In this document: positions 2,914 through 63,013 of the stretch, one piece after another
How positions within the stretch are numbered: position 1 is the stretch's first letter
How the letters are laid out: each line of letters begins with the position of its first letter
Notes under the pieces: model-generated
Told to the model about the DNA's origin: nothing
Seen by the model: the letters and a program-made list of their open reading frames with translations, nothing else
The model's database searches: none
Translations under genes and position numbers: made by a program
DNA from: the human T2T-CHM13v2.0 reference genome, Homo sapiens
Length of the DNA stretch: 64,000 bases
Assembly (NCBI RefSeq): GCF_009914755.1
Contig: NC_060930.1
Direction: 5' to 3' (one strand)

Positions 2914-3344
2914 TGTTGTAGATTAAATTGTGTCTAAAGAAAAGATACGTAGAAGTCCTAATCCCTGGTACCTGTGAATGTGAGCTTATTTGGAAACAGC
3001 GTCTTTGCAAATGTAGGCAAGTTAGGATGAGATCATTCTGGATTAGGATGGGTGTCCTTATAACAAAAGTGAAAGGTGGAGACAGACACACAGAGAAGAG
3101 AAGGCCTTGTGAAGACAGAGGCAGAGACTGGAATCATACATCTACAAGCCAAGAAATGTTGAGGATTGCTGGCAACCACTAGAAGCTAAGAGAGGGGCCT
3201 GGAACAGATTCAGAGGGAGCATGGCCTTTGCTGACTCCTTGATTTCAGACTTCTGGCCTCTAGTACTAAGAGAGAATACATTCCTGTTGTTCTAAGCCAT
3301 CCGGTTTCAGGTACTTTGTCATGGCAGCCCTAGAAACTAATATA
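2914..3344 (+). mobile_element. MaLR solo LTR (MLT1C-like)
   Basis: ACCTGTGAATGTGAGCTTATTTGGAAA, TTGATTTCAGACTTCTGGCCTC and terminal GGCAGCCCTAGAAACTAATATA match MLT1 consensus. Confidence 0.88.
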
Positions 3345-21994: not shown

Positions 21995-22338
21995 TTTTTG
22001 TTTGTTTGTTTGTTTTTTGTTTTTTTGAGACAGTCTCACACTGTTGCCTGGGCTGGAGTGCAATGGCGCGATCTTGCTATCTTGGCTCACTGCAACCTCT
22101 GCCTCCCAGGTTCATGCAATTCTCCTGCCTCAGCCTCCCAAGTAGCTGGGAAATCTATGTCACTCAAGGCCTTAGTGGGGAAAGGTGCACACCACCATAC
22201 CTGGGTAATTTTTTGTATTTTTACTAGACGGGGTTTCACTATGTTGGCCAGACTGGTCTTAAACTCCTAACTTCGTGATCTGCCCACCTTGGCCTCCCAA
22301 AGTGCTGGGATTACAGGCATGAGCCACTGTGCCTGGCC
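21995..22338 (-). mobile_element. AluS SINE carrying a foreign templated insertion
   Basis: Full dimer; TSD-like GAGTAA(A/G)TG; non-Alu segment at 22150-22187. Confidence 0.95.
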
Positions 22339-23993
22339 GAGTAAGTGTTATGTACCAGACATGATGCTAGGTCTTGGGTGCCTTCTTTCCTTGTGCCTTG
22401 TGTTTTCCATTCACTGGTTTCTTGACATTCTTTGTGATTCTAGCTTCTTAGAGTTATTTTTCCTCCTGCTGCTTTCTGCAATCTTCTTGGCCATTATATC
22501 TAGGAACTCTGTCCTTTCTAGCCAGCCAGAATTTAGGAGACTGTCCCCCACGTGCTTTTCTCTCTAGCAAAATAGCTTGCATTTATAGCATAACTAATCC
22601 ACAGGAAGGCAAACACGTGTGTGCCCTGCATGTCCCCAAACAGCTTAATTTCCTCAACATCCTACTCCTTGGGTTTTGGGTTGGGCTGAACTATAGCTCT
22701 TCATGGATTTGTTCTGGACCCTGGCCCTATAAATAGTTGTGATATTGGGACTATTAGCCACACTTGTTTACCAGGTCACATTTGTTCTTAAAGAATTCCT
22801 GGAAACTGCTTGTCAGCTACAGGCAGCTCTATATCTGCCTCATACTTAAGCACAGCTTTTTGGCTAGGTGATTGTGTGTTTGCTTGATATGCAAATTTTA
22901 CAAACCATTGTTATTTACTATTAAAGAAATCCCTCACTCTGCTGATGGCAATATTGCCTGGTATTTCCCTTAGTTCACTTAGCTTCTTATGTAAAGACTA
23001 TGTTCATTCTCAAAGGCTTCTGGTTCCAATACTGCTAAATTTCTTTAATTGTCAGAATTTATTAAAAGCCTCCTTGTCAAAATAGCATAACAATCAATCA
23101 TTGTTGGGGAAAAACTTTAACTTAAAATAAGTGGCTGGCCACTTATCTCTTGTCTATTTGGTCTCAAATCTTCCTCCACGTGTTCGCATTTTATACTCTT
23201 CAAAAAATGCAGAGGTTTGAGGATGCATTGGATTGTTGGCTTTTATGGATGGCAGAGTTAATTTAATTCCGCAATGGAACTCCATGAATTCTGCCCCTAT
23301 GGGTAGAAGGTGTTACAGGGCCCACAGGGACCCAACTTCAACAGCAAGGGATCTCATGGTTCAAAAACATGAAATTGGCAAACGAGAGTACAAGAGTGTA
23401 CCTTTGTCTATTTTATATATTATATACATAATCAGATCCATCCCAAGCATATGGCCCTTGTGAGGGAAGATGCAGTCATTAAAGGCATTGGCTGAGGTTT
23501 GACCTGCTTCAATCTAACTTTCCATGTGCTCATAAAATTGGACTCTGCTCTGAGATAAAAGAATTCTGCTTTCTTCAAAGAGAATGCTCAGCGCTCCTGC
23601 TCCACTTTCAGGAGCAGCCTTCTGCTCTGCAGCCTCCCAGATCCAGGCTATAAAGAGTGCTTTTGGTTCTCACTTGAAGCAGCTGTATGTGAAAGAAGTA
23701 ACTTCCTAAGGCAAGTTTAAAACATTCACCCAGGTTCTGTGGAAGAAATCTATGTCTCTCAAGGCCTTAGTGGGGAAAGGTGGAGACATGGTGGGAGCGG
23801 GGGAGAATTACATGCAGGAGCCAGGAACTAAAAGCAAAGACTAATGGGGAAAAAAGGGAAAGAGAGAGAGACATCAAGCTCCATTAAAAGCAAGATGGAA
23901 AATCTTGGAGAAAAGTGGAGAGAGAACTGCTGGAAGCTGTCCAAATCAACAAAATAGGGAGACCAAAGGAAAAAAGAAAGCACTAAACAGTAA

Positions 23994-24296
<303 letters not shown>

Positions 24297-26831: not shown

Positions 26832-27244
<413 letters not shown>

Positions 27245-36137: not shown

Positions 36138-36580
36138 ATAACAGGCAGAATAATGGCATCCCAAGTATATTCCCCTCCTAGTACCTGCAACCTGTGAATA
36201 TCTTTCCTTACATGACAGAAGGACTTTGCAGATATAATTAAGGATCTTGAGATGGAGAGATGACTCTGAATTATCCTAGCAGGGGCAGTGTAATTGCAGG
36301 GATCCTTACAAGAGGGAAGCAAGAGTGTCAGGGTTAGAGAGAGAGAAGAGATCTGAAGACACTGAGCTGCTAGCTTTGGAGATAGAAGCCAACACATGCA
36401 GCTGGCCTCTGGAAGCTGGAAAAGGTAAGGAAATGGATTCACCCCTAGAGCCTGCAGAAGGCAGTTCTGTCACCCCATTCGAGACTTCTGACTTCTAGAA
36501 TGGTAAAATAAGAAATGTGTGTTGTTGTAAGCCTGTTAGTTCGTAGTAATTTGTTACAGTAGCACTAAAAACCAGATACA
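36138..36580 (+). mobile_element. MLT1D-like MaLR LTR
   Basis: GGCAGAATAATGGC, GACTTTGCAGATATAATTAAGGATCTTGAGATGG and TAATTTGTTACAG. Confidence 0.88.
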
Positions 36581-36847
36581 CCTAGCCTGCAAGAACTTGA
36601 GTTTCTGCATCTTCCTTTCTGGTAGTGTGGTTAAGTAGTGCAGTAGTAGCTTGGCCTGCTAGAGTCCATCCATCCTTAAGGAAAGGTTGTTTGTTTGCAG
36701 GAGAGATCGGAAACCACCTGAGAGGATGAGCAATGGGCAATGGAGGGGCACGAAACTCTCAGCCAAAGAAGACATCTTTTTGTTTACCTAAAGCCAGGGA
36801 AGTCTATGAAGGTCCCTTCTCTGCACAAACAGGGGCCCTTAAGTGGG

Positions 36848-36990
36848 TGATTTGCACCAAAGGCTGACACAGTGAAGGTGGCTCCATCGACAGTCCTACC
36901 TTGGTCAGGTTTGTACAGCATCAGTTGGAACAGGAAGAGCAAGAGCAGTAGAAAGGGAACTGCAAACTTGGTGTGGCTGCCACAGGAAAC
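36848..36990 (+). repeat. Left arm of long inverted repeat
   Basis: 36860-36980 is the reverse complement of 37833-37954, about 109/122 identical by hand alignment. Confidence 0.97.
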
Positions 36991-37822
36991 ATTCCCATTC
37001 GGGAATGAAATTCAGAAATTGTAGACAGGCAGAGAGACAGGCAGAGACTATACCTGGTTCATGTATCAGTGTCAGAAAAGGTCTGTTCTGGCAGGCGCAG
37101 AGTGCATACTGAGATGGCCAACACAAATGGGGAGGAACAGTACAAGGAAATACGAGAAAATGGACCAGACAGGAGAGACATAATAACCTAGTACTACTCG
37201 CTAAATGGCTGCAATAATGCTTTCATGAGAAGGGATCAATGGTTAACACCTGGAAGTATTTTAGTTTTATCACTGTAGTCATTATTTTATAGGTTCATTA
37301 TATTTAGACGTGGAATGCTTCGGTTAACCTCCAGTGCAGTTCATTTAGAAGTGCGTGTGCTGTGATCTTTTCCACTGGCTCAATCTTTTGTATTTATAAA
37401 GCTCTGGATCTATTCTGCCCTTTGTTTTGTTTAGTAGAGGCATCTTAACCACGTAGACCCGAATAACGTGAGTTGTTTTCAAGAAAATGCCCTAATTAGG
37501 CAGATGAGGTGAAATGACACCCACCTAAGGGATCAAGACTGTTTTTCTTGTCAGGCTAGAAAGTTTGACCAAGGCTATTTCCAAGGCTGCGTAGAACACT
37601 GGGGTGTGTGCAGAAAGTGGGGAGGCTGGGGAGAAGTGGCTGGCAGGGTGTGGGGAGGAATGTTGCTGCAGAGGGGCAGCAATTGAAGCAAAATCCGAAG
37701 TGACTACCGGGTTCTAGCAAGGAAAACAGTCCAGTACTGGGTTGTTATCCACGTGGGCCAGGCAAAGATAGGGCGTCAAATGAAATGGGGCAGAAAGCAG
37801 CCAGAAAGAGGAGGGTCTTGAA

Positions 37823-37967
37823 GTACCCTGCAGCAGCCACACCAAGTTGGCAGTTGTATTTCTATTGCTCTTTCTCTTCCTGTTCCAACTGATGCTGTAC
37901 AAATCTGACCAAGGTTACGACTGAAGACGGAGCTACCTTCACTGTGTCAGCCTTAAATGCAAAGTCA
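37823..37967 (-). repeat. Right arm of long inverted repeat
   Basis: Includes a 30 bp perfect complement of TTTGTACAGCATCAGTTGGAACAGGAAGAG. Confidence 0.97.
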
Positions 37968-39054
37968 GGCTGCAATGTTGGAGAGTGAACCTTGCACGTG
38001 GCCTTTAATTTGGTTCTAGTGTTATGGTTGTGGGCAGGCTGGGAGTACTAAGAGGGCTCAGGGGAAGGGACAAACAATTTTTTAGTTCAGTGTACCAACA
38101 CATGCAGTGATCACGGAACAGGTGTTCAGTAGTAACTTGTTGATGGATAATACACCTGAGTAACAGAAAGCCAGCTTAGGGTGTGTCCGTGTACACTGAG
38201 TTGGTTTGAGACACCAGGGCAGAGGCCCAAGGAAGATCTCTAGCTAAGGATTTCTTGAGGCCCACCTGGCCTAATGCACTAAATGATTAAACAGTCCTAT
38301 GTACCAGCTGTGGCTGTCAAAGAAACATTTAGTGGTGTTGCCCTGGAACTGTCAAGGCTGATGGCATTCACAAATCTTCCCAAGAGAGTATCCCAACAAC
38401 TCTTGTTCTAGCAAAGAAGACTCCACTATTTCCTGCATAGCCACAGTGTCCAGAATAACATGCCCCCAGGGAAGAAGGGCCCACCAAGAGAACTCAGATT
38501 GCTCACCCACCCACGCTTTGGACAGATAGACAGGAAACGTTCATCTATTGAAGGCAACACTTGGCAGAGTGTATCGGAGGGAAGCAAAGATTTCTGGAGA
38601 AATCAATTGATATTTAGTCAACATTTGAAAGTGCTTAGTAAAAGGGCTTAAGCAAAGACTAAAATTTGTTAGTAAGAAGAGCCTTGATTCAAGGAGGCAT
38701 TCCAGAGCAGACTACGTGCTTACACGGGACAAGGAGTGTGTTTGGGATTATTTACATTGCCATCAGATGTTTGCAGGACATCACTGAAATGATTGGAAAA
38801 GGAATGTCAGAGTCTACCCCAAATTGCTTAGATTCTTCTATTGTGTGTAAACATGCGTAGTAAATTCCATTGTTCTTACTGCTTAAGTCTTTGTTAATTG
38901 AGTCTCTTTGTTGGTTTCATGAAGTGCCGAGTAAAAGTACTCTTTCTGGTATTGACAAATATAGGCTCCTGAACTGTGGGTGCTGCGGACTCTCAGATTC
39001 ACTATCCTACTCTTCAAGTGGATGCTGCATTCTCAGGGAGGCACTGTCATACAG

Positions 39055-39300: not shown

Positions 39301-39684
<384 letters not shown>

Positions 39685-40774: not shown

Positions 40775-41335
<561 letters not shown>

Positions 41336-42570: not shown

Positions 42571-43042
<472 letters not shown>

Positions 43043-43611
43043 GTGAGTCACCATGTCTGGCTGAGATTTGTTTTTACTAGTGGTTTGTTGGTCGATGCTT
43101 TGAGTCTAACCATTTTGTACTTCGGTGTCCTACTTTAGGAGAGAATCTGAGCTTGTGACAGTGAACAGTGGAGAAGCAAAATCACTTTAGTACAGGACTT
43201 TAGTAGAGTGAATATGTAATAGTATAAAGCGGACTGAACACTTCTGGGAAACAGTAACACAAACCATAGCTGGACTGGATTTATGTGATTTCTTAGGTAC
43301 GTGAAATAAGTGATTGTGACTTCACAAGCTCATTGGGTTAAGTCACAGAATTTTCACTCTGAACACAGAATGTAGATTATCATGTTTTTTTTTTTAACAA
43401 ATGCTGCCTGAATTATGGGTATTTGTAACTTTGCTTAGCTTTTAAAGAGCCTATTCCTAATTTTCTGTTATACAGAAAACAGCTATGTGCATATTTGGTA
43501 TTTTTTTAGTATTAAGTGCATACTGCCAGGTTCTTTTGCATTAAGTACTAGGATATTTTCCTTTTCATATCAGTCTGCTCTTGTCTAATCTTTTCAGTGG
43601 CATAATATTCT

Positions 43612-45945: not shown

Positions 45946-46416
45946 TGTACTGACAGGTTGAATAGTATCTCCCAAAAGCTATCCCCACATTCTAACCCCC
46001 CATACCTGTGAATGCGACCTTATTTGGAAAAAGAGTCTTTGCAGATTTGTCTAAGTTAAGGATCTCAAGATGAGGTGATCCTGGTTTACCCAGGGATGCC
46101 CTAAGTCCAGTTGGAGTGTCCTTATAAAAGACAGAGAGGAGAACACAGGGAGAGAAAAGAAGTCCCTGCGGAGATGGAAGCAGAGATTGGAGTGATGCAG
46201 CCACAAGCCAAGGGAAGCCTGGAGCCACCAGACGCTGGAAGAAGTGTGGATTCTCTAGGGGTTGGATTCTCCCCTAGAACCTTTGAAGGGAGCATGGCCC
46301 TGCCCACACTATGATTTTGGACTTCAAACCTCCAGAAGTGTAAAGAAATGAATTTCTGTTGTTTTAAACCACCCAGTTTGGGGTAATTTGTTTCAGCAAT
46401 CCTGGTAAGGTAATAC
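45946..46416 (+). mobile_element. MLT1C/D-like MaLR LTR
   Basis: ACCTGTGAATGCGACCTTATTTGGAAAA and GAATTTCTGTTGTTTTAAACCACCCAGTTTG. Confidence 0.88.
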
Positions 46417-47194
46417 ACCTAAGCTTCGGAATGACCCTAGATTTTAGGTATGATTATGATCATAAGTTATCTTACAGCTAAAGAACCTGAGGTGCAAGGA
46501 CACTGAGTGACCTGGCCAAGGTTTCCTGGCTCCTAAGTGGCTGTCACTGGGTGGCACCAGGCCGCTGGGCCTCCACAATCCATGTGCATAACCACTGTGT
46601 CCCAAGTTCCCAAACAGACACAGCTTTCTAAGCTATTGACCCAAACCCCTGTCTTTTTTAGACTCCTCTAGCTTCTGCTTCAACTTATTTTTTAAATTGC
46701 TAAATGCAGAAAACTTGGGCAACTCAGAAAAGAAGAAAACAAAATGCAGAAAGTGTCCACAGTTACACCTCCCCAAGGGAACCAGTGTTTACATGTTTGT
46801 AATTTACACCCCCCTCCCTGAAAACGCACACCCACACATATTTTACTTGAAAGCGGTGTGTTTTAGTATTCATCATGATTCTCAGATTTCTTAGTAAAGT
46901 TTCAAAAACAACACGTAGGATTACCATACCAACTGTTTATTTTGCCAACTAAGGCCACTGAAACAACAGCAAAACAACCAAGAAAACCTACCATCCAAAA
47001 ATCACCATCATTGTATAAAAGAAAGAAAGCTTAACTTTATAAAAGCAAGATTATAATCTCAGAATAAAGAATGGGACTCTAAGTTAAATATATTTAACTG
47101 TGTGAAAAACCCAATACATTGCCCTTATTTTTCTCACGATGCCATAGACCAGCAGAAACTTCATTGTAGACCTGTAGTGGTCCATGGTCTAACC

Positions 47195-47719: not shown

Positions 47720-48045
47720 GAATCTATTGTGAACATTTTTACATATCAAGAAACATTGGTCTACAGGATGACTTTTAATGGCTGCATTTATATAAGTCAT
47801 GTGAGCGTCTATCTTGATTTAGTGATCCAATTTCCTATTGTTGATTATCTAGGTTGTTTTTAAATTTTCTTCTCTTTCTTTTTCTCTTTCTGTCCCATTA
47901 CAAATAGAGCTGAGATGAATATTCTTGAACCTACACATTTGTGCACTTGTCTGATTAGTTCTTTAGGAAATATTCTAGAAATAGAGCTACTGGTTGAAAG
48001 GACAAGCATATCTGATAAGTACATTTTCAAGGCATTTAACATGTT
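47720..48045 (-). mobile_element. Old L1 (L1ME-like) 3' fragment
   Basis: TTTTAATGGCTGCAT, TTCCTATTGTTGATTATCTAGGTTGTTT and TTTCTTTAGGAAATATTCTAGAAATAGA. Confidence 0.75.
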
Positions 48046-48634
48046 TTCCTTTCATCCTAAACAAGCCCTTAAGTTGGAAATTATTCTTCAAGTCTCATTG
48101 AGCCTCGGGGAGCTCAGTGCTTCATGAAAGTCTGAGGCAATCACAAGAGTGTGGGAGGTGCTGGAATAGGAGAAGTCCAGGCAGTGAGAGGAAGGTGGGT
48201 CAGGAAAGGCTTCTGAGAGGATGCCACATCTAGACAAGGACTTCCAGAGTCTGTCTGTTCACAGCTGTGCTCAACGGTGCCATATTAAACGCATGCATGA
48301 GAAAGAATTCCTAATAGACTTTATAGCTAAATGATTTTTTTGCATGACTAAATAGCATCAGCTGAAATATAAAACATAAAACAAGCTCCTCAAAATGAAT
48401 CAAAGCAAAATAAGAGAATTTCTAATAATTTATGAGGCCTGTTTATTTCGACACCCTTTAAGTAGGCATAGGAAAAAGATGAGGAAATGATCGTATTTTG
48501 TAGCAATTAATGAGGTCAAGTTATGAGACTCTGTCATCAAGTTTAATTCATATCTTCTTTCTTTAAAATTGACATTTTTGCACTTGACTCCTTATAGTAA
48601 CCTATAGAAGATTTGGGAGAAGAGTGGAATATTC

Positions 48635-54030: not shown

Positions 54031-55719
54031 AAATGGGATAGCTAAAGACAGGGCGTAGAATCAAGAAACCCAGGAAAATTCCTAGTAGGTGCCTAGAATG
54101 AGTGGAGGGAGATGGTTGAAAGAGCAGCTGCCGAGGTGGTAGGTCCCTGTCTTATAAGGACAGGTTGCAGGGTACAGGAGAGGCTGAAGAGTCCCAGGGT
54201 GGACTGAGGACAGTGTGGAATGCCTGGGAGGCTGGGGTGTGGAATGCATGAGAAAGTTGCTCCAGGACTCCCTGCTCCCCCAGGGTGCAGATCATTTAAT
54301 GGTCTGCAAATGATTTAACATCTCCCCTAGTCTGGGTTCCCAGGGTAAATTGTCTCCATTCCCACCACAGAGGAGCTGTGCTGTCCAACAGCTAGCAGGC
54401 CGGGAGCCACTGTGCTGGGTGGGGTGCTTTGGCCAGAATGTTGCTGGAAGTGGCACTGTAGCAATTACTGCTTAAGAACTAACTGTAATTATTAATTATG
54501 ACCCTAACAACAGTTGAGGTCCTGCATAATTCTTTCTGTGGGCTGCCTTTTGCCTGCGGAGCCCAATTTCTCAAACGTCTCATTAGTCTTAAAATAGTTT
54601 TTTTCTATATATAATTTTTTCTTCCAAAGTCAGTTGTATATATAAAAAAGGATTATAGTTGTATAAAAACAGGATCTATAGAAATAGATTTATTTTTAGC
54701 CAAGAGGCGGCAATACTCAAGCTTTCCTTCTCAGCGCAGGGCTTATTTCTCTTTCTCTATTTAAATATTCAGGTCTATTACTATACTGAACTGAGATTTG
54801 GTTTATTCTGGTAGAAGTAGCTAAATAAGGGTACACACTTAGCAACTCATAACTTCATATGTTTAAGTGCTGGAATAAGGTGTAAGTTAAAATCGGGCTT
54901 TTTGATTTTCACTGTAGATAGAGTTCAGAAATACTGTCATAGTTAAAAAAAAAACCAAAATGTTTCAGCTCCGGGAGAAAATGAAACTCTGTGATACAAT
55001 AGACGGTGCTTGTGATTTTATTTAACAGTTTAATCTTTGCATACAAACAAAACCACCTGAACAGAAGCTGGTTTCTTAAAAACAAGAGCAGCGAGTATGA
55101 TAATAAATGCCCTGAACACATCTCTGCTCATCCTATGGAATCTCTTTCGGAATTCGCATGTAGCTTTCCCTAATACGGAGCAAGGGGCTTTAAGTCACAC
55201 TGCCATTCCCAACTGCTGTGCCTAAATTGCTTCTAGAAGCACCGAGCCCCTCCGATGCTGATGCAGATTTAGCTTTGGGCTGGGGAGAATGTGGGGAGAA
55301 GTCATTTGCATTAAAAAAACACTAGCTGTCTATTCCCATTAGAAAAAACTCTCGGTGTTTTAGTACAAATTATTTTAAAAGAGCAGATAACTTATGGATG
55401 CAGAAAGGGTAATCCACAAAGATGTATGCAACTTTGTTCAGTTGATGTCCTCAGGGCGAAAACATCAAGGATAACAAGTGTACTAAATACAAACAGACAC
55501 AATCATAAAATATGACACCCATGATTAAGATACCCTTTTCAAGGGTCCTTCGCACTTAGGAGGGAAGCTGCCTTGTTAATATCAGGGCCCGTTATTTACT
55601 ACGATTCAGAGGCAGGTTGAAACAATGATCTCTTCTTTCTTGACTGTATTCTTAAAAGGTTGTGAAATTCTGGGGCTTTAATCAGACTAGCCTAGAATCA
55701 CAGCGCTGGGTCAGAGAGG

Positions 55720-55925
55720 GGATTAGTGTTAAGGGTTATGAGCTCAGTCTTCGGAGCTGGACAGATCTGGTTTGGAATCCCAGCTCTGACACTTAGATAT
55801 CATCTTCTCTGAAGTCTAGGGGTCTTCATCTGCAAATGAGAAATTGAGGTTGTTGAGAGGATTAAACACAACAAAACAAAACCAAAAACCCAGATGTAAA
55901 GTGCTTAGTATAGTGCCTGGCATAG
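55720..55925 (+). mobile_element. MIRb-like SINE
   Basis: TTTGGAATCCCAGCTCTGACACTTA and TGTAAAGTGCTTAGTATAGTGCCTGGCATA. Confidence 0.85.
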
Positions 55926-56184
55926 AAAAAAAAAAGAGTGTGTGTTTCCTTCCTGAGTGCCTGAATACAGAAAAGATGGGAGAATTTTTAAAATGCACTA
56001 TTCACTGATATATGAAGGAAAGAGATTTTTATGGTTTAAGAAAAATTGCACCAAGATCTTGGTAATTTTAGGTAGTAAGAGGAAAATGGAAGCGCATAAC
56101 TGTCTGCGTTTGTGGATGGCACTGATACAATAACTGTTCATAGCCAACACTTAGGTATATCTCTTTCATTTATCTGAGAGTAAG

Positions 56185-57150
56185 TTAACAGTTCTTGAGC
56201 ATTTGCTTGGTGCCAAGTGCCCTTTAAGTGCTTTATATGTGTTGTTTCATTTAATCTTTAAAACATCATCATGAGTAGGCACTAATACTGTTACAGGAGG
56301 TAGCCAGTCAGGCATGAGCAGGGCAGGAGAGGGCTTCCCCGCCCCCCCACCAAAAATGTCAGGCAACCATCAGGTGATGGTCAGGCGGTTGTTAACTGTC
56401 TCTCTAAAATAATAATTGTTCTCAGCCAGCACCAGGGAAAAGGCAGTCTCCCAATAAACACAAACACCTGAAACTGGCGATCAGCAGCTTCCCGATAAGA
56501 TGCCAGGAGTTGGGCGAGTGGGCTCAAGCATGTGCATTAAGAGGCAATATGGCGGCGCTTAACTAGTATATGACCTCCTAGGTACATTTGACTAGTAAGA
56601 GATGAGTACTTCAAGTAAACATGCGTGCAACTCCAGTAAACACACTGCACATGCTCCCCTCACAAGTGCTGAGAGGCCACTGTGATTCTTCCCACCCTTC
56701 CCACCCCAGGGGAAGACTCAGGAGAGAAGGACCCAAGACCCCGGAAGCATGCCAACATGGAAAACTCCAACTCCAAAGGTCAAACCATGCACCTGATCTC
56801 TCATTGCCCACTTGGGCCTCTTCCAAGTGTACTTTATTTCCTTTTGTTTCTGCTCTAAGCTTTTTAATAAACTTTCACTCCTGCTCTAAAACTTAACCTC
56901 AGTCTCTCCTTCTGGCCCTCAGTCGAATTCTTTCTGCTGAGGAGGCAAGAATTGAGATGCTGCAGATTCGTACAGATTCGCAGCCGCGCTAACAATACTA
57001 TCCCCATTCCACGGGGCAAGAAACATAGGAACAAAGAAGCTAAGTATTGATAATTTGTCCAAAGTCACAAAGCTAGTAAGAAGTGGAAACTGTATTTAAA
57101 TTCAGGCACTTATTCCAGAGTATACTGTCTTTTTTTTTTTCTTTCAAATT
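56185..57150 (-). mobile_element. MIR split by MER50 LTR
   Basis: TTGAGCATTTGCTTGGTGCCAAG on the left; TATCCCCATT and TTGTCCAAAGTCACAAAGCTAGTAAG on the right. Confidence 0.8.
56289..56994 (+). mobile_element. MER50 solo LTR (ERV1)
   Basis: TG...CA ends; AGTCAGGCATGAGCAGGGCAGGAGAGGG and CAGCAGCTTCCCGATAAGAT; AATAAA at 56866; 4 bp TSD ATAC at 56285-88 and 56995-98. Confidence 0.9.
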
Positions 57151-57614
57151 TTTCTTCTTTTTTACTTTTTCTTTCAGCTTTCCAAGGTTGAACCGAGTCT
57201 ACTTTCTTAACCACTCTATTGTGTGTTTTATTTATTTTTATATCTCTCACAGCATCATAAATAGTGCTTTGCACCTAGAGGACACTGAATATTTATCCAA
57301 TGATTTTTTTAAAGAATGCAAGCCTTTGCTGTGAACGTGAGGGAGAAGGAAAGGGTTAAAGTGTTCTATCAGATTTTAGAACAATAAAGTCAAGTAGACA
57401 GATGGCATCTTACCAAAGAACAATGGCATAAAACTATTTATGGAGCCCTGTAGGCAGTGAGCAAGTGACTGAACATGGTTTAAGTCCTAAATTTGGAACC
57501 AGAAGAATACCAATAGCAAATGCATGCTGGTTAATTATTTCCCTCTGCACAATACCTACAAAATCACCTAGAACATTAAGACCTGTGTCATCACTAAACT
57601 TTTGTGAAATTATC

Positions 57615-57830
57615 ATGATCTAGTGGAAAGGCCACAGGGTTGGGTCTGACCAGACCTAAATAAAACATCAAATTCCACCTCTTCCCAGCTGTGTGACTTT
57701 GGATACATTATTCAGCATCTTTGAGCCCTAGTATGCCCAATTTGAAAGGAAGGGGGCGTGTAACAAAAATACTAACTCCCAGCTTCCTGACATGAGATAA
57801 AGTATATGAAACTGTTGTGTTAATAATGAA
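57615..57830 (+). mobile_element. MIR fragment
   Basis: TAGTGGAAAG and CAGCTGTGTGACTTTGGA. Confidence 0.65.
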
Positions 57831-59269
57831 ACACTGGAGAAATACACATTCTTAAGTAACATTAGTTTTTACAACAGAAAACCCTCACATATCTACAGGG
57901 TGATGCAATAGACATTTTTTTTTCTTTTCTTTTCTCAGAATGGGTCTTCCTAACTGGCCGGTAGCTCCAGTCTCTGTGGTAATTTAGAGACTGAAGCCCC
58001 TTTCATCTGTGGCTCGTCCACCTCCACAGGTTTGCTGTGGAAGGGGAAGAAGTGTGGAAAACTCCTGTAGGATGTTTCTGTAGACCAGAAAGTGGCTCAG
58101 TCCTATGGCCACCACTACGTACAAGGGATGCTGGGAAATGCCATCTAGGGATGGCGGCAGGCATAAAAGGAAAAGGTTTTGGCCACTGACTGGCAATTCC
58201 AACTCCCAGTTTTTCATCAGGCTGTTGTAAGATTAAATGAGTGAAAGCAGAGGAGATGGCTCTGTTAATCATAAAACACTATGATATTATAGCCAATTCC
58301 TAATGTAGATGCCCAAACATAGGAATATTCCAAACAGAAATGTAAAGCTCTCATCCATTTGTTTTCTTAAATGCCAATTCCAAGGACAGTTTGCCAAGGC
58401 ACATGGTGCCTGGTGATTGTCCCAACAGGTGAGCAGGCTGATGGCAATTCAGTGTGGTCAGGTAGAGTGGTCGTGGCCACACATGACTCCATTAGAGGCC
58501 GTTTGATCGTGTGAAAGGCTTGCAAACTCACAGGACATTGGTCATTGACTACTGTGCAATAGACTCATCAGATAAAAAAAGCTGAATAGGAAATTTGGAA
58601 AGAAAAGCATAGCAAGGGCCAAAAATGATACAGATGGATCTTTGTGAAAGAGCTATCGTGTCCTCTTCCCTTTCTATCTGAATGCACTAACAACTTCTGA
58701 GGATAAGTGAATTTGCCATTCCTCCCTGTGCAATCAAGAAGGATTTCTCAGTGAAGAGCAATTTCATAGATTTTTTATTATAACATGATTTTTTTGTTTC
58801 GGTCATCTTTTAGGAAGTGGATGTGCACTGAACATCCCAATTTTCCAGGAAAGAATTGATAAGTGACATGTATTCATCTGTTTCCATCACTAAATGTTTT
58901 GTATTTTATTTGTAATATATTATTTTTGTTTTAAGGTAAATCCAGATGTATTCAGGGGATACAGAATGATTTTTAATACTTTTTTGGTGGATTCCAATGA
59001 TATATAATGTGTATATTATATAAAGGATTTTCTAACGGATACTCTTTTTAACTCCTTTATTTCTTACCATTCTTTATGTCACATATTATGTGCCATTCTT
59101 TACCTGGTAAAATACCTTTTGTTCAATTATTATACTCTTTGGAGTCAATAGATCTAAATTCTGAAAATAAAGTTAAGCAAAAATGGGTTATCAGGCCTTC
59201 TCTGACTACTTGGTCTAATACAGTGCATCATCTTGACATTCTACTTGGGTTGCCTTATTTTTCTTCTTG

Positions 59270-59425
59270 GCCTAGTATATATTTATGTATTTATTGCTGG
59301 GCTTTACCTACTAAAACATAAGCTCCATGAGGGTAGGGATTTTGGATGTCTTTGTTCCCTGCTGTATGCCTGGGCCATGGAATAGTGCCTGGTACCTAAT
59401 GGATGTTCAGTGATATTGGCTAAAT
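59270..59425 (+). mobile_element. L2a 3' end
   Basis: TAAGCTCCATGAGGGTAGGGATTTTG and GAATAGTGCCTGGTAC. Confidence 0.85.
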
Positions 59426-60133
59426 ACATGCAAACATGAAAATTAGGTCTTGAATATCCTGGATCAATGATCTACTGTGTTAATCTTCCCCTCTATCTCA
59501 GGACTTTATTCCTCTAAAGCAGCACCTGAGAAAAACCGCTTGTCTCTGCCCAGCCACCTCCATTTATGTTTGAGTGAAGCTCATGATGTCTGCATCTCCT
59601 GGCATAGAAGAGGAGCTACTCTCTGGTGTTGCTCCCTAGACCCAGCCTATTTAAGAGCCATGCTGTCTTTCCACATGGCTGGGATAGAATGAGGCACGGG
59701 AAGTTACAGCGACAAGGATGAATTTCCAAGGATGAATAATTCTCACAGGAAAAGAGCACCGTGGTCTTGGGTAGAGAGTGGGGAAAGTTGGGAGAAGGAT
59801 TTAAGGAATGGTCAGTGCTTTACAGTTATTTCAAGTTTTTCCTTTTATTATCAAGAAAGAATAAATAGATTTATAAATACATATATAGATAGTAGAGCAG
59901 GATAAAAACATTCCATTTCTTAAAAGAGTTACTAATAATTTTTTTGGAGAGAGAACTGCCTTTGGGAATGTCTGCTTGGGGCAGGTGAGACTTCGTAGAC
60001 AGGGACAGATGACAAGGATTAAGGAAGAGAGTTCACTGCTTTGAGGGAAGAACTGGGTGAAGAGGAGAGAGAAGGAAAACTCAGTGAGATGGCTGGACTA
60101 GGAGAGTGAGGGCCAGGAAGGCCCCATGGAGGT

Positions 60134-60611
60134 TGTAGCCACCAGCCCTCAAGATGGCCCCGTTTCCTGGTATTCACACCGAGTATTCACACAACATAAC
60201 TCTCTTCCACGTTGTACCAGGGCTAGTTTGTGTGGCCAATTAGAATATGACAGGAATGGCTGTATGTCACTTTCAAGATTAGGTTATAAAAGAGTATGGC
60301 TTCTTCTTGGGATCTCTCTCTCTTTCTGTGAGCAACTATGGAGAAGCTCATGTGTCAAGGAGATGAAGACTCTGGACAACAGCCAATAAGGAGCTGAGTT
60401 CTGTCAGCAATTACCTGAGTGATCTTGCAAGGAACTCCACTGGCGCTGGGTGAGTCTCGAGGTGACTGCAGCCCCATGAAAGCCCCTGAGCCAAAACAAC
60501 CTAGAGGAGCCACTCCTAGATCCCTCAGGTAACACTTTAATACATTTCCAACTCTTTAAAGTTGGTAATGTTGGGGGGTAATTTGTTATGCAGCAATAGC
60601 TAATGAATACA
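60134..60611 (+). mobile_element. MLT1F-like MaLR LTR
   Basis: CAAGATGGCCCC, TGTCACTTTCAAGATTAGGTTATAAAAGA and GGGGTAATTTGTTATGCAGCAATAG. Confidence 0.87.
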
Positions 60612-60696
60612 GTGGTAGAGGAGACAAAGAGCATATTATTCACAGTGACGTCTGTTGTTTTATGGAGGGTTCTGAGTAGAAAATGGACTCTGATCC

Positions 60697-61467
60697 TGTC
60701 TTAGTCCAATCAGGCTGCAGTAACAAAATACCATAGACTTCGTAGTGGATATAGTTTGAATATATGTCCCCACTAAAACTCGTGTTGAAATGTAATCCCT
60801 GATGGTAGGAGGTGATTAGTCATAGGGGCAGATCCCTCATGGCTTGGTGCCATCCTCATGATACTGAGTGAGTTCTTGCAAGATCTGGTCATTTAAAAGT
60901 GTGTAGCCCTTCTCCTTCTCCCCCAACTCTCTCTCTCTTGCTCCTTCTTTGGCCACGTGATATGTTGGCTCCCTCTTTGCCTTCTGCCATGATTGAAGTC
61001 TTCCTGAGGCCTCCCCAGAAGCTGGGCAGATGCCAGCGCCATGCTTCCTGTACAGCCTGCAGAACCATGAGCCAGTTAAACCTCTTTTCTTTACAAATTA
61101 CCTAGTCTTAGGGATTTCTTTATAGCAATGCAAGAATGGCCTAATACAGTAGCTTATAAACAACAGAAATGTATTTCTTACCGTTCTGGAGGCTGAGAAG
61201 TCCAAGATTAAGGTACTGGCAGATTCAATATCTGGAGAAGGCCTATTTTATGGTTCATACATGGCACTTTCTTGCCATGTGCTCACATGGTGGAAGGGAC
61301 GAGGAGTGTCTCTCAGGCCTCTTTTATAAGGGCACTAATCCCATTTACGAAGGTCTTGCCATTATGACCTAACAATCCCATAGTCCCTACCTCCCAATAA
61401 CCTCACCTTGGGGGTTAGGATTTCAACCCATGAATTTCGGGCGAACATAAACATCCAGACCATAGCT
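60697..61467 (-). mobile_element. MLT1A-like LTR split by MSTB
   Basis: TGTCTTAGTCC start and CAGACCATAGC end; 5 bp TSD GATCC at 60692-96 and 61468-72. Confidence 0.88.
60747..61148 (+). mobile_element. MSTB-like MaLR LTR
   Basis: CTTCCTGTACAGCCTGCAGAACCATGAGCCA and end GGCCTAATACA; TSD GTAG(T/C). Confidence 0.9.
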
Positions 61468-61699
61468 GATCCACATCTATCTTTAGACTCTGGGACACAC
61501 TTTGTGCACCTGGGCAGCAAAGAAACCAGGAGGGGGAGACTTGGGTACCTTGAAGGACTTGGGGCTTTGAATTTTCCTCTGAGATGATTTAGATGGACCT
61601 GAGTTGAGCTGAGGATAGTCTTCTTGAAACAGACACAATCACCAAAACTCTGGCTTAAATTGGCAACGTATCACAGTGTAAGGTGTAAGGTGGTAAGTA

Positions 61700-62140
61700 G
61701 GGAGCATCTTTCTTGCAACCAACAGAAAACATGCTCAGACTGACTTATGCACAACAGGGTTTTAATTGCCTGCTATAACTGAAAGGGCCAGAGATGGGTT
61801 GGCTTCAGGAGGGGTTGGATCCAGTGGCTACACAATATCCCCTGGTTTGGCTCCACCTGCCTCTCTGGCCTCCTCAGAGTCAACATCACCCCAAGCCTGG
61901 CTTCTGACATGATCACAAGATGGCTACCAGCCATGTAGGGGGCTGTGCATAGGACGGCAGCCTCCTTGTTCATGTCCAGCCGGCATGGACAGCTTTACTC
62001 TTCTGACCTGCAAAATGAAGTCACATGCTTCACATTGGCAAGACGAGCTGAGGTCATGAGTTCAATTCTGGATCTGTGTTCTCCCGCCTGGCTGGTGGCT
62101 TCTCCCTATCTCCCTGGGCAAGGGGGCTGGGTTTTGCAGG
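61700..62140 (-). mobile_element. Old MLT1 (J/K-like) LTR fragment
   Basis: TTGCAACCAACAGAAAAC, TGGCTTCAGG..TTGGATCCAG and CACAAGATGGCTACCAGC. Confidence 0.6.
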
Positions 62141-62772
62141 TGGATTAGTCCTGGAGCTGAAGGTGGGGTTCATAACGGAGCCATGGTGGAAGGAAGGCTG
62201 GAACTGAGGTCCAGAGAGATTCAGGGGCTTGCCCAAGGCCAAACAGTGAGAAAGGTGAGAACTAGGTCTTGATGCAGAGTCTGTCTGGCCCCCAGCTCCA
62301 CGCTTTCCTCCTCTTGCCACATGGCTGTCACCCACTCAGTGTTCAGAAACAAAAACATATGATCCCCTCCCATGTGTCTGGCACTGTGCTTTTTTCTGTG
62401 TTCATGCATTCATTTTTCACACCAGTCCTGTGCAGTGGATATTGGTATTATTATTCCCATGTTGCTGATGAAGCAGTGGGGTCTCAGGATGTGCAAGCAT
62501 CTCGCAGGAAACTGGCAGAGACCAGAGGAGTCCTCTGAACAGGCAGCTGAGTGGGAATCTCTGTGGGATGCTGTGGGGCCCCTTGCTGAGAGGGGCTCCG
62601 AGCTGTGGGGCGTGGGGTGTCAGGCATGCAGTCAGGTGGCAGGAGCAGCATTCCAGTTCGAATTTTCAAGCATTTTGGAAATTTTGAAAGCCATCCTCCA
62701 GCTCAGAACATTTCTCAGTCTTGATCATCTCCCATTAACCCTTACCATCACTGCTCCAGTGCCCTCCACCCC

Positions 62773-63013
62773 ACACACGCAGAGACACACAGACACACAG
62801 ACACAAAGACACATACACACACACAGATATGCAGACACAGACATGCAGAAACACATAGACACACAGATACACACACACATATACATAGAGGGAAACACAC
62901 ACACAGACACACATACACACAGACACACATAAACAGACATACATACAGACATGCACAGACACACATACAGATTCATATACACACAGACACACGTGCACGT
63001 GTATGCGCACACA
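62773..63013. repeat. Degenerate (CA)n/(CACAGA)n compound repeat
   Basis: About 240 bp of CA-rich units. Confidence 0.95.

What the first reader, a model, noticed from the sequence alone, without database searches (positions are those of the whole stretch)
36848..37967. Long inverted repeat of apparently unique DNA flanking an 852 bp spacer
Seen: 36860-36980 pairs with 37833-37954 at about 89% (12 substitutions and 1 gap), including a 30 bp perfect run. Weaker homology extends ~12 bp outward and ~10 bp inward. The arms match no Alu, L1, MIR or LTR I recognise, and I see no TSD. On a + strand transcript three mismatches become G-U pairs. Inference: it could be (a) a >120 bp RNA stem, i.e. a non-Alu ADAR/Dicer substrate or intronic loop; (b) a substrate for recurrent inversion of the spacer, with arms homogenised by gene conversion; (c) a scar of inverted template-switch duplication; or (d) the long TIRs of an unannotated DNA transposon.
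Basis: partly seen in the sequence, partly recalled or inferred. Interest (0 to 1): 0.8.

Follow-up and report, generated by a model that had tools for sequence, protein, structure and literature searches.

The report
Old local inverted duplication, unique DNA
A 137-base piece of ordinary intergenic human DNA was once copied backwards about 840 bases from its source, and the two copies have drifted apart since; it looks like a mutational scar, not a working element.

Summary
Arms 36851-36986 and 37827-37963 are reverse complements, with 119 of 137 columns identical (86.9%), 17 substitutions, 1 gap, an 840-bp spacer and sharp edges.

In the whole T2T genome each arm finds only itself and its partner. 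The spacer and both flanks find only themselves. As a positive control, an old interspersed repeat 250 bp upstream gave 391 candidates.

I found no target-site duplication, no protein domain, no Rfam family and no paralogous exon. A transposon and "two copies of a known repeat" are therefore rejected.

The stem would be equally stable on either strand (-219.8 and -219.3 kcal/mol; 4 and 5 G-U pairs). No transcript is annotated here, so nothing points to selection for RNA pairing. The 30-bp perfect run is not unusual for this number of mismatches (P=0.15), so it gives no sign of gene conversion.

Best reading: a fixed, old (roughly 20-70 My, inferred), non-tandem inverted duplication made by replication template switching or repair synthesis. 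This is a known mutation class (PMC5829575).

Orthologues, editing and haplotype orientation could not be checked with these tools. Interest is low.

The parts
36851..36986 (.). Left arm of the inverted repeat (136 nt)
   Evidence: The gapped alignment to the reverse complement of 37827-37963 has 119/137 identical columns. Its only other match in the genome is the right arm. The sequence-only model R1 scores it at 135 bits.
36987..37826 (.). Spacer, 840 bp of single-copy DNA (GC 0.448, 15 CpG)
   Evidence: A genome search of 36990-37826 returns only itself at E<=10. None of the ORFs tested in or overlapping it (15 in all) reaches a Pfam cut-off. There is no Rfam match near threshold.
37827..37963 (.). 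Right arm of the inverted repeat (137 nt, carries the 1-nt extra base)
   Evidence: Alignment. Its only other match in the genome is the left arm. Model R1 scores it at 137.7 bits on the - strand.

Best explanation
This is a fixed, old, local (non-tandem) inverted duplication. A roughly 137-bp piece of unique intergenic DNA, about 40 kb downstream of CD83, was copied in reverse orientation 840 bp from its source. The likely cause is a DNA polymerase switching template at a stalled or broken replication fork (FoSTeS/MMBIR type), or fill-in synthesis during break repair. Both copies then decayed as neutral DNA to 87% identity.

Shown: there are two and only two copies, inverted, 840 bp apart, with sharp edges, in unique surroundings, with no transposon hallmarks and no strand bias in pairing.

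Inferred: the mechanism, the age, and the absence of function. The age estimate is d = 0.137 +/- 0.034. With recalled primate substitution rates of about 1-2.2e-9 per site per year this gives roughly 30-70 My. If the four clusters of adjacent mismatches are counted as single events it gives about 20-45 My.

Today it is a stable imperfect palindrome. The spacer is too wide and the arms are too diverged for cruciform extrusion, and the longest perfect run (30 bp) is too short for efficient homologous recombination.
For: - Arm alignment: 119/137 identical, E about 4e-38.
- Copy number is exactly 2. Searches of the 3.1-Gb genome with the left arm, the right arm, and the 30-mer core with up to 3 mismatches return only the two arms.
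- The spacer and both flanks return only themselves.
- Positive control for sensitivity: the neighbouring old repeat 36470-36600 gave 391 candidates, of which 40 were scored, 39 of them non-self hits at 75-85% identity.
- No TSD.
- No Pfam domain reaches its cut-off in 0 of 15 ORFs tested.
- No paralogous exon by six-frame search.
- No Rfam family.
- Homology ends abruptly at all four edges.
- Adjacent-mismatch clustering (6 adjacent pairs, P=0.011) fits multi-nucleotide events such as error-prone synthesis or later small complex mutations.
- In the window, 10 of the 11 inverted pairs of at least 60 nt within 5 kb lie in masked Alu-type repeats, at 72-88% complementarity. The arms are therefore about as diverged from each other as neighbouring Alus are.
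- Known class: non-tandem opposite-strand duplications made up 21 (plus 6 with deletion) of 166 local rearrangements in one human genome, with spans of 50-20,000 bases. The authors attribute many of the harder-to-explain rearrangements to template switching (PMC5829575, passages read).
Against: - No outgroup sequence was available. A single-copy ancestral state, which arm is the source, and the age are all unverified.
- The transition:transversion ratio of 9:8 is lower than the roughly 2:1 expected for neutral mammalian substitution (recalled). With 17 events this is weak evidence.
- No microhomology is visible at the junctions. After this much decay it might not be.
- Characterised short-range template-switch mutations are much shorter, with an expected copied length of about 10 nt (PMC7954356). 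The event belongs to the larger, less well-characterised size class.
- The genome search is candidate-based and skips very common words. It could miss a family below about 75% identity. Dfam was not available.
Confidence: 0.65

Rival explanations
1. A transcribed long hairpin. An unannotated RNA (an enhancer RNA or lncRNA downstream of CD83) spans both arms and folds into a ~137-bp imperfect stem. That stem is edited by ADAR or processed, in the way inverted Alu pairs are.
For: The arms form the dominant stem in the MFE and centroid folds of the 1136-nt + strand RNA. Arm-arm duplex energy is -219.8 kcal/mol, against -56.4 +/- 5.7 for 50 shuffles. The longest perfect duplex is 30 bp, which should be enough for ADAR binding (recalled knowledge).
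Against: No transcript is annotated over 36851-37963; the nearest is a lncRNA at 55002-62846 (hub table). The - strand stem is just as good (-219.3 kcal/mol; 5 G-U pairs against 4), so there is no strand-specific signature of selection for pairing. The 17 mismatches include 8 transversions that break pairs on both strands. There is no Rfam match. Any inverted duplicate would fold like this, so the fold is a consequence of the repeat and not evidence of function.
Confidence: 0.1
2. A substrate for recurrent inversion of the 840-bp spacer by recombination between the arms, with gene conversion keeping the arms alike.
For: The geometry is right: inverted arms flank a unique spacer. Inverted repeats flank all 59 definite human-chimpanzee microinversions reported in PMC8755829, although those inversions are only 17-33 nt long (passages read).
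Against: The longest uninterrupted identity is 30 bp. That length is expected from random placement of the 18 differences (P=0.15), so there is no visible conversion tract. At 13% divergence with runs of at most 30 bp, the arms fall well below the identity that mammalian homologous recombination needs (recalled: on the order of 130-200+ bp). In dsDNA, spacer length and divergence strongly suppress IR-driven recombination (PMC10164571, abstract and introduction).
Confidence: 0.06
3. A non-autonomous DNA transposon with ~137-bp terminal inverted repeats, unannotated because its family is very small.
For: The overall shape (long TIR-like arms, a ~1.1-kb element) resembles a MITE or MULE-like element. 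A CACAGTG heptamer sits 18 nt inside each arm (sequence).
Against: TIRs that are 87% alike imply a young insertion, so sister copies should be about as similar and easy to find. None exists: only self and the partner arm turn up in the 3.1-Gb genome, and the internal part is single-copy too. The same tool finds an older repeat family. There is no TSD of any superfamily length. No transposase remnant is present; 0 of 15 ORFs reach a Pfam cut-off.
Confidence: 0.04
4. An ancient inverted repeat kept similar by purifying selection, for example a paired regulatory site bound in both orientations. In that case it would be much older than its divergence suggests.
For: Nothing direct. The location between CD83 and lncRNA genes is regulatory-looking territory, with a RefSeq silencer at 48037-48237 (hub table). 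Spacer CpG density (15 in 840 bp) is somewhat above that of the flanks (6 and 10 per 1000 bp).
Against: The differences are spread along the whole arm, with no protected core beyond what chance gives (P=0.15 for the 30-bp run). There is no CTCF-like motif in the arms at up to 2 mismatches to a recalled consensus. Conservation could not be measured here.
Confidence: 0.08

Closest known systems
Non-tandem localized duplication in opposite orientation (Frith & Khan 2018, PMC5829575)
   Same: A unique segment is duplicated a short distance away on the opposite strand. The span of ~1.1 kb lies within the reported 50-20,000-base range. There are no transposon hallmarks, and template switching (FoSTeS/MMBIR) is the proposed cause.
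   Different: The published cases are recent and polymorphic, or human-specific, and were polarised with ape outgroups. This one is old (13% arm divergence) and present in the reference, and its ancestral state was not checked.
Short-range template-switch mutations, four-point model (Loytynoja & Goldman 2017, PMC5453318; Walker et al. 2021, PMC7954356)
   Same: [quoted passage not shown]
   Different: Those events are about 10 nt long on average and lie within tens of bases of their template. Here the copy is 137 nt and 840 bp away.
Inverted Alu pairs (IR-Alu), the usual human long dsRNA/ADAR substrates and fragile inverted repeats
   Same: Arm identity (87%) and spacing are similar to those of the Alu-type pairs in the same window, which are 72-88% complementary with 1.4-4.9 kb spacers. 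It would form a comparable stem if transcribed.
   Different: The arms are single-copy DNA and not SINEs. They are about half an Alu in length. The two copies arose from one local event and not from two independent insertions.
DNA transposons with long terminal inverted repeats (MITE/MULE-like)
   Same: Long inverted termini around a short, non-coding interior.
   Different: No other copy in the genome, no TSD and no transposase trace.

Membership tests
Interspersed repeat / DNA transposon with TIRs | Multiple dispersed copies in the genome | tested here: not met
   The left arm, the right arm and the 30-mer core (up to 3 mismatches) find only the two arms. The spacer finds only itself. The control repeat gave 391 candidates.
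Interspersed repeat / DNA transposon with TIRs | Target-site duplication flanking the termini | tested here: not met
   Only two 4-bp matches among 169 boundary combinations, which is chance level. Nothing of 5-10 bp was found.
Interspersed repeat / DNA transposon with TIRs | Transposase coding remnant or similarity to an autonomous element | tested here: not met
   0 of 15 ORFs of at least 40 aa reach a Pfam cut-off; the best hits are E=0.029 and E=0.14 to DUFs. Dfam nucleotide models were not available.
Non-tandem local duplication, opposite orientation | Exactly two copies, close together, on opposite strands, with discrete edges | tested here: met
Non-tandem local duplication, opposite orientation | Single-copy ancestral state in an outgroup | not testable with these tools
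   No other vertebrate genome is held; the genome search states that the window's genome has no relatives here.
Short-range template-switch mutation (four-point model) | Reverse-complement copy of a nearby template | tested here: met
Short-range template-switch mutation (four-point model) | Short copied fragment (expected ~10 nt) within tens of bases of its template | tested here: not met
   The copy is 137 nt and lies 840 bp away, against an expected length of 10 (PMC7954356).
Long dsRNA / ADAR substrate (IR-Alu-like) | Stable long intramolecular duplex | tested here: met
   -219.8 kcal/mol against -56.4 +/- 5.7 for shuffles. The arms pair in the full-length fold.
Long dsRNA / ADAR substrate (IR-Alu-like) | Both arms lie in one transcript, with A-to-I editing observed | not testable with these tools
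   No transcript is annotated over the element (hub table). No expression or editing data were available.
NAHR inversion substrate | Long uninterrupted identity between inverted arms | tested here: not met
   The longest perfect run is 30 bp, and overall identity is 86.9%.
NAHR inversion substrate | Both spacer orientations seen among haplotypes or species | not testable with these tools
   Only one assembly is held.

The most novel reading that the evidence does not exclude
The duplication created a non-repeat-derived long hairpin in an unannotated transcript of the CD83 downstream region. That hairpin acts as an endogenous dsRNA, either as an ADAR substrate or innate-immune ligand, or as a young source of small RNAs, in immune cells. 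It would be a case of a template-switch event giving birth to a structured RNA on a scale ten times larger than the miRNA-sized cases described so far (PMC10710096 and PMC8794818, seen only in the search listing).
Probability: 0.05. Interest if true: 0.55.

Novelty: new member of a known kind. Interest (0 to 1): 0.15.

Why it matters
It matters little on its own. It is a clean, datable example of a local inverted duplication of unique DNA that became fixed. This mutation class is seen as polymorphisms in long reads, but old fixed cases are seldom catalogued. It shows that long inverted repeats in human DNA need not come from transposons.

If many such cases were collected, they could calibrate how often template switching makes hairpin-capable DNA at the hundred-base scale, and how long such repeats survive. 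The element is only 40 kb from the immune gene CD83, so the dsRNA reading would be worth a quick look in expression and editing data. Nothing found here points to it.

Tried and rejected
- **Transposon or known repeat: rejected.** Genome-wide copy number is 2, with a working positive control. There is no TSD and no Pfam domain.
- **Hidden exon or pseudogene in the arms: rejected.** The 75-aa ORF on the - strand of the left arm (hydrophobic run, GT after CCAAG) hits only its own partner arm (E=2.2e-7) in a six-frame search of the genome. It has no Pfam match.
- **Known RNA family: rejected.** Only two sub-threshold Rfam matches, at 19.5 and 17.1 bits against gathering scores of 41.8 and 50.
- **Larger complex rearrangement: not seen.** A sensitive BLAST of 36400-38400 against the window finds nothing else significant apart from the old repeat at 36477-36584.
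- **Gene-conversion tract: no support.** The 30-bp run has P=0.15.
- **Strand-specific RNA selection: no support.** Energies are equal and G-U counts are 4 and 5.
The window total of 10 is not above chance (mean 6.3).
- **Profile search of the whole genome: not possible.** A DNA alignment and the sequence-only model R1 are not accepted for this genome. R1 was run on the window only and found just the two arms.
- **Literature on the locus:** 0 papers for LOC105374940. Nothing relevant came up for CD83 + 'kb downstream' + enhancer + JARID2 (3 papers hold the terms, 2 were listed, both unrelated).
- **Which arm is the copy: undetermined.** The flanks are unique, so no interrupted repeat marks the insertion site.

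Full report
**Observation**

The repeat finder reports two abutting inverted pairs. A gapped local alignment merges them into one pair, 36851-36986 against the reverse complement of 37827-37963. That pair has 137 columns, 119 identical (86.9%), 17 substitutions (9 transitions, 8 transversions) and one 1-nt gap, with 840 bp between the arms.

The 30-bp perfect run is present. Chance is excluded: E = 4.7e-39 against the window and 3.8e-38 against the 3.1-Gb genome. Beyond the arms, the flanks share no similarity at any of the four edges.

**Is it a repeat family?**

The window's genome (T2T-CHM13) could be searched, with these results:
- The left arm, the right arm, and the 30-mer core with up to 3 mismatches each return only the two arms.
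- The spacer (36990-37826) returns only itself at E<=10.
- The left flank 36601-36850 and the right flank 37964-38500 each return only themselves.

To check that the tool can see interspersed repeats, I searched 36470-36600. That stretch had weak matches elsewhere in the window. It gave 391 first-look candidates. Of the 40 scored, 39 were non-self hits at 75-85% identity, spread over many chromosomes.

Two independent copies of a family that are 87% alike must each lie close to their consensus. Sister copies would then be about as similar as the partner arm, and the tool found the partner arm easily. 'Both arms are independent copies of a known repeat family' is therefore rejected at this sensitivity. 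What remains open is that the duplicated segment itself derives from a very old repeat below about 75% identity. That would not change the conclusion that the pair arose by a local duplication.

**Transposon hallmarks**

None was found:
- There is no direct repeat of 5-10 bp flanking the element, even with 6 bp of slack at each end. Only two 4-bp matches occur among 169 boundary combinations, which is about what chance gives.
- None of the 15 stop-to-stop ORFs of at least 40 aa that I picked from the 31 listed reaches a Pfam cut-off. The best are two DUF hits at E=0.029 and E=0.14.
- A 75-aa ORF on the - strand of the left arm looked faintly exon-like, with a hydrophobic run followed by AG|GT. 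In a six-frame search of the genome it hits only the partner arm.
- Rfam gives nothing near threshold.
- A sensitive BLAST of 36400-38400 against the window shows no further duplicated pieces, so the event was simple and not a multi-fragment rearrangement.
- A sequence-only covariance model of the arms finds only the two arms in the window.

**RNA stem**

The arms dominate the fold of a 1136-nt + strand RNA. The arm-arm duplex is -219.8 kcal/mol, against -56.4 +/- 5.7 for 50 shuffles. Any inverted duplicate would do this.

The informative test is asymmetry, and none exists. The - strand duplex is -219.3 kcal/mol. Of the 17 mismatches, 4 become G-U on the + strand and 5 on the - strand. The other 8 are transversions that break the pair on both strands. 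The hub's gene table lists no transcript over the element. The RNA reading therefore rests on geometry alone.

**Inversion and gene conversion**

The longest identical run (30 bp) is what random placement of the 18 differing columns yields (P=0.15 from 100,000 permutations). No conversion tract is visible.

The differences are, however, clustered into adjacent positions. There are 6 adjacent pairs (P=0.011), in four clusters of 2-3 bases. This fits multi-nucleotide events, either error-prone synthesis when the copy was made or later small complex mutations. It also partly explains the low transition:transversion ratio.

The current arms are poor substrates for homologous recombination, given their 13% divergence and perfect runs of at most 30 bp. 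The threshold for uninterrupted identity is recalled and comes from no call. In dsDNA, wider spacers and divergence sharply reduce IR-driven recombination: moving from a 12-bp to a 20-bp spacer cuts it about 40-fold. In long single-stranded DNA, repeats up to 25% diverged and 30 kb apart can still interact (PMC10164571, abstract and introduction). The element should be stable in normal replication. It remains a possible fold-back site under replication stress, like the many Alu-type pairs around it.

**Best explanation**

This is an old, fixed, non-tandem inverted duplication of unique DNA. The class is known. In one human genome compared with ape-supported ancestral arrangements, 21 of 166 local rearrangements were non-tandem duplications on the opposite strand, and 6 more were the same type with a deletion. 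Spans ran from 50 to 20,000 bases. The authors discuss replication template switching (FoSTeS/MMBIR) as a cause of the rearrangements that homologous recombination does not explain (PMC5829575, passages read).

The better-characterised short-range template-switch mutations work the same way in principle but are about 10 nt long (PMC7954356; PMC5453318). This event is therefore of the larger kind.

**Age (inferred)**

The Jukes-Cantor distance is 0.137 +/- 0.034. Recalled primate substitution rates of about 1-2.2e-9 per site per year give about 30-70 My. Counting the four mismatch clusters as single events gives about 20-45 My.

As an internal yardstick, 10 of the 11 inverted pairs of at least 60 nt within 5 kb in this window lie in masked Alu-type repeats. 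These are 72-88% complementary, so the arms are about as diverged as neighbouring Alus are from each other.

The prediction is that both arms are present in anthropoid primates and that only one is present outside primates.

**What could not be done**

No other vertebrate genome, Dfam, expression, editing or haplotype data were available. The ancestral state, the source arm, transcription and spacer orientation all remain untested. Literature searches for the neighbouring lncRNA (0 papers) and for a CD83 downstream enhancer gave nothing about this interval.

**Verdict**

Option (d) is rejected, and options (a) and (b) are unsupported but not excluded. It is an ordinary mutational scar of a known kind, and interest is low.

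Noticed in passing
window 36470-36600: An old interspersed repeat sits just upstream of the left arm. It gave 391 candidates in the genome, with hits at 75-85% identity on many chromosomes, and 65-68% matches at 3242-3337 and 46320-46421 in the window. It is not in the hub's list of the longest masked stretches. The family was not named because no repeat library was available.
   Followed up: partly
window 39380-39611 with 40971-41206 and 42801-43053; 22076-24266 with 26889-27097: Ten inverted pairs of 68-116 nt at 72-88% complementarity lie in masked, Alu-sized repeats within 1.4-4.9 kb of each other. These are the conventional inverted-Alu dsRNA and fold-back substrates of this region.
   Followed up: no
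The window total of 10 matches at up to 2 mismatches is not above chance (mean 6.3).
   Followed up: no
window 36787-37011 (-): A 75-aa open frame across the left arm has a Leu/Phe-rich hydrophobic run followed by an AG|GTAGGA donor-like site. The right arm keeps 46 aa of it. It has no homologue in the genome beyond the partner arm and no Pfam match. It is probably a by-product of a pyrimidine-rich stretch.
   Followed up: yes
window 36851-36986 vs 37827-37963: Differences between the arms are clustered into four blocks of 2-3 adjacent bases (6 adjacent pairs, P=0.011). Transitions and transversions are nearly equal (9:8), which is unusual for neutral point substitution. This suggests multi-nucleotide mutation events.
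   Followed up: partly
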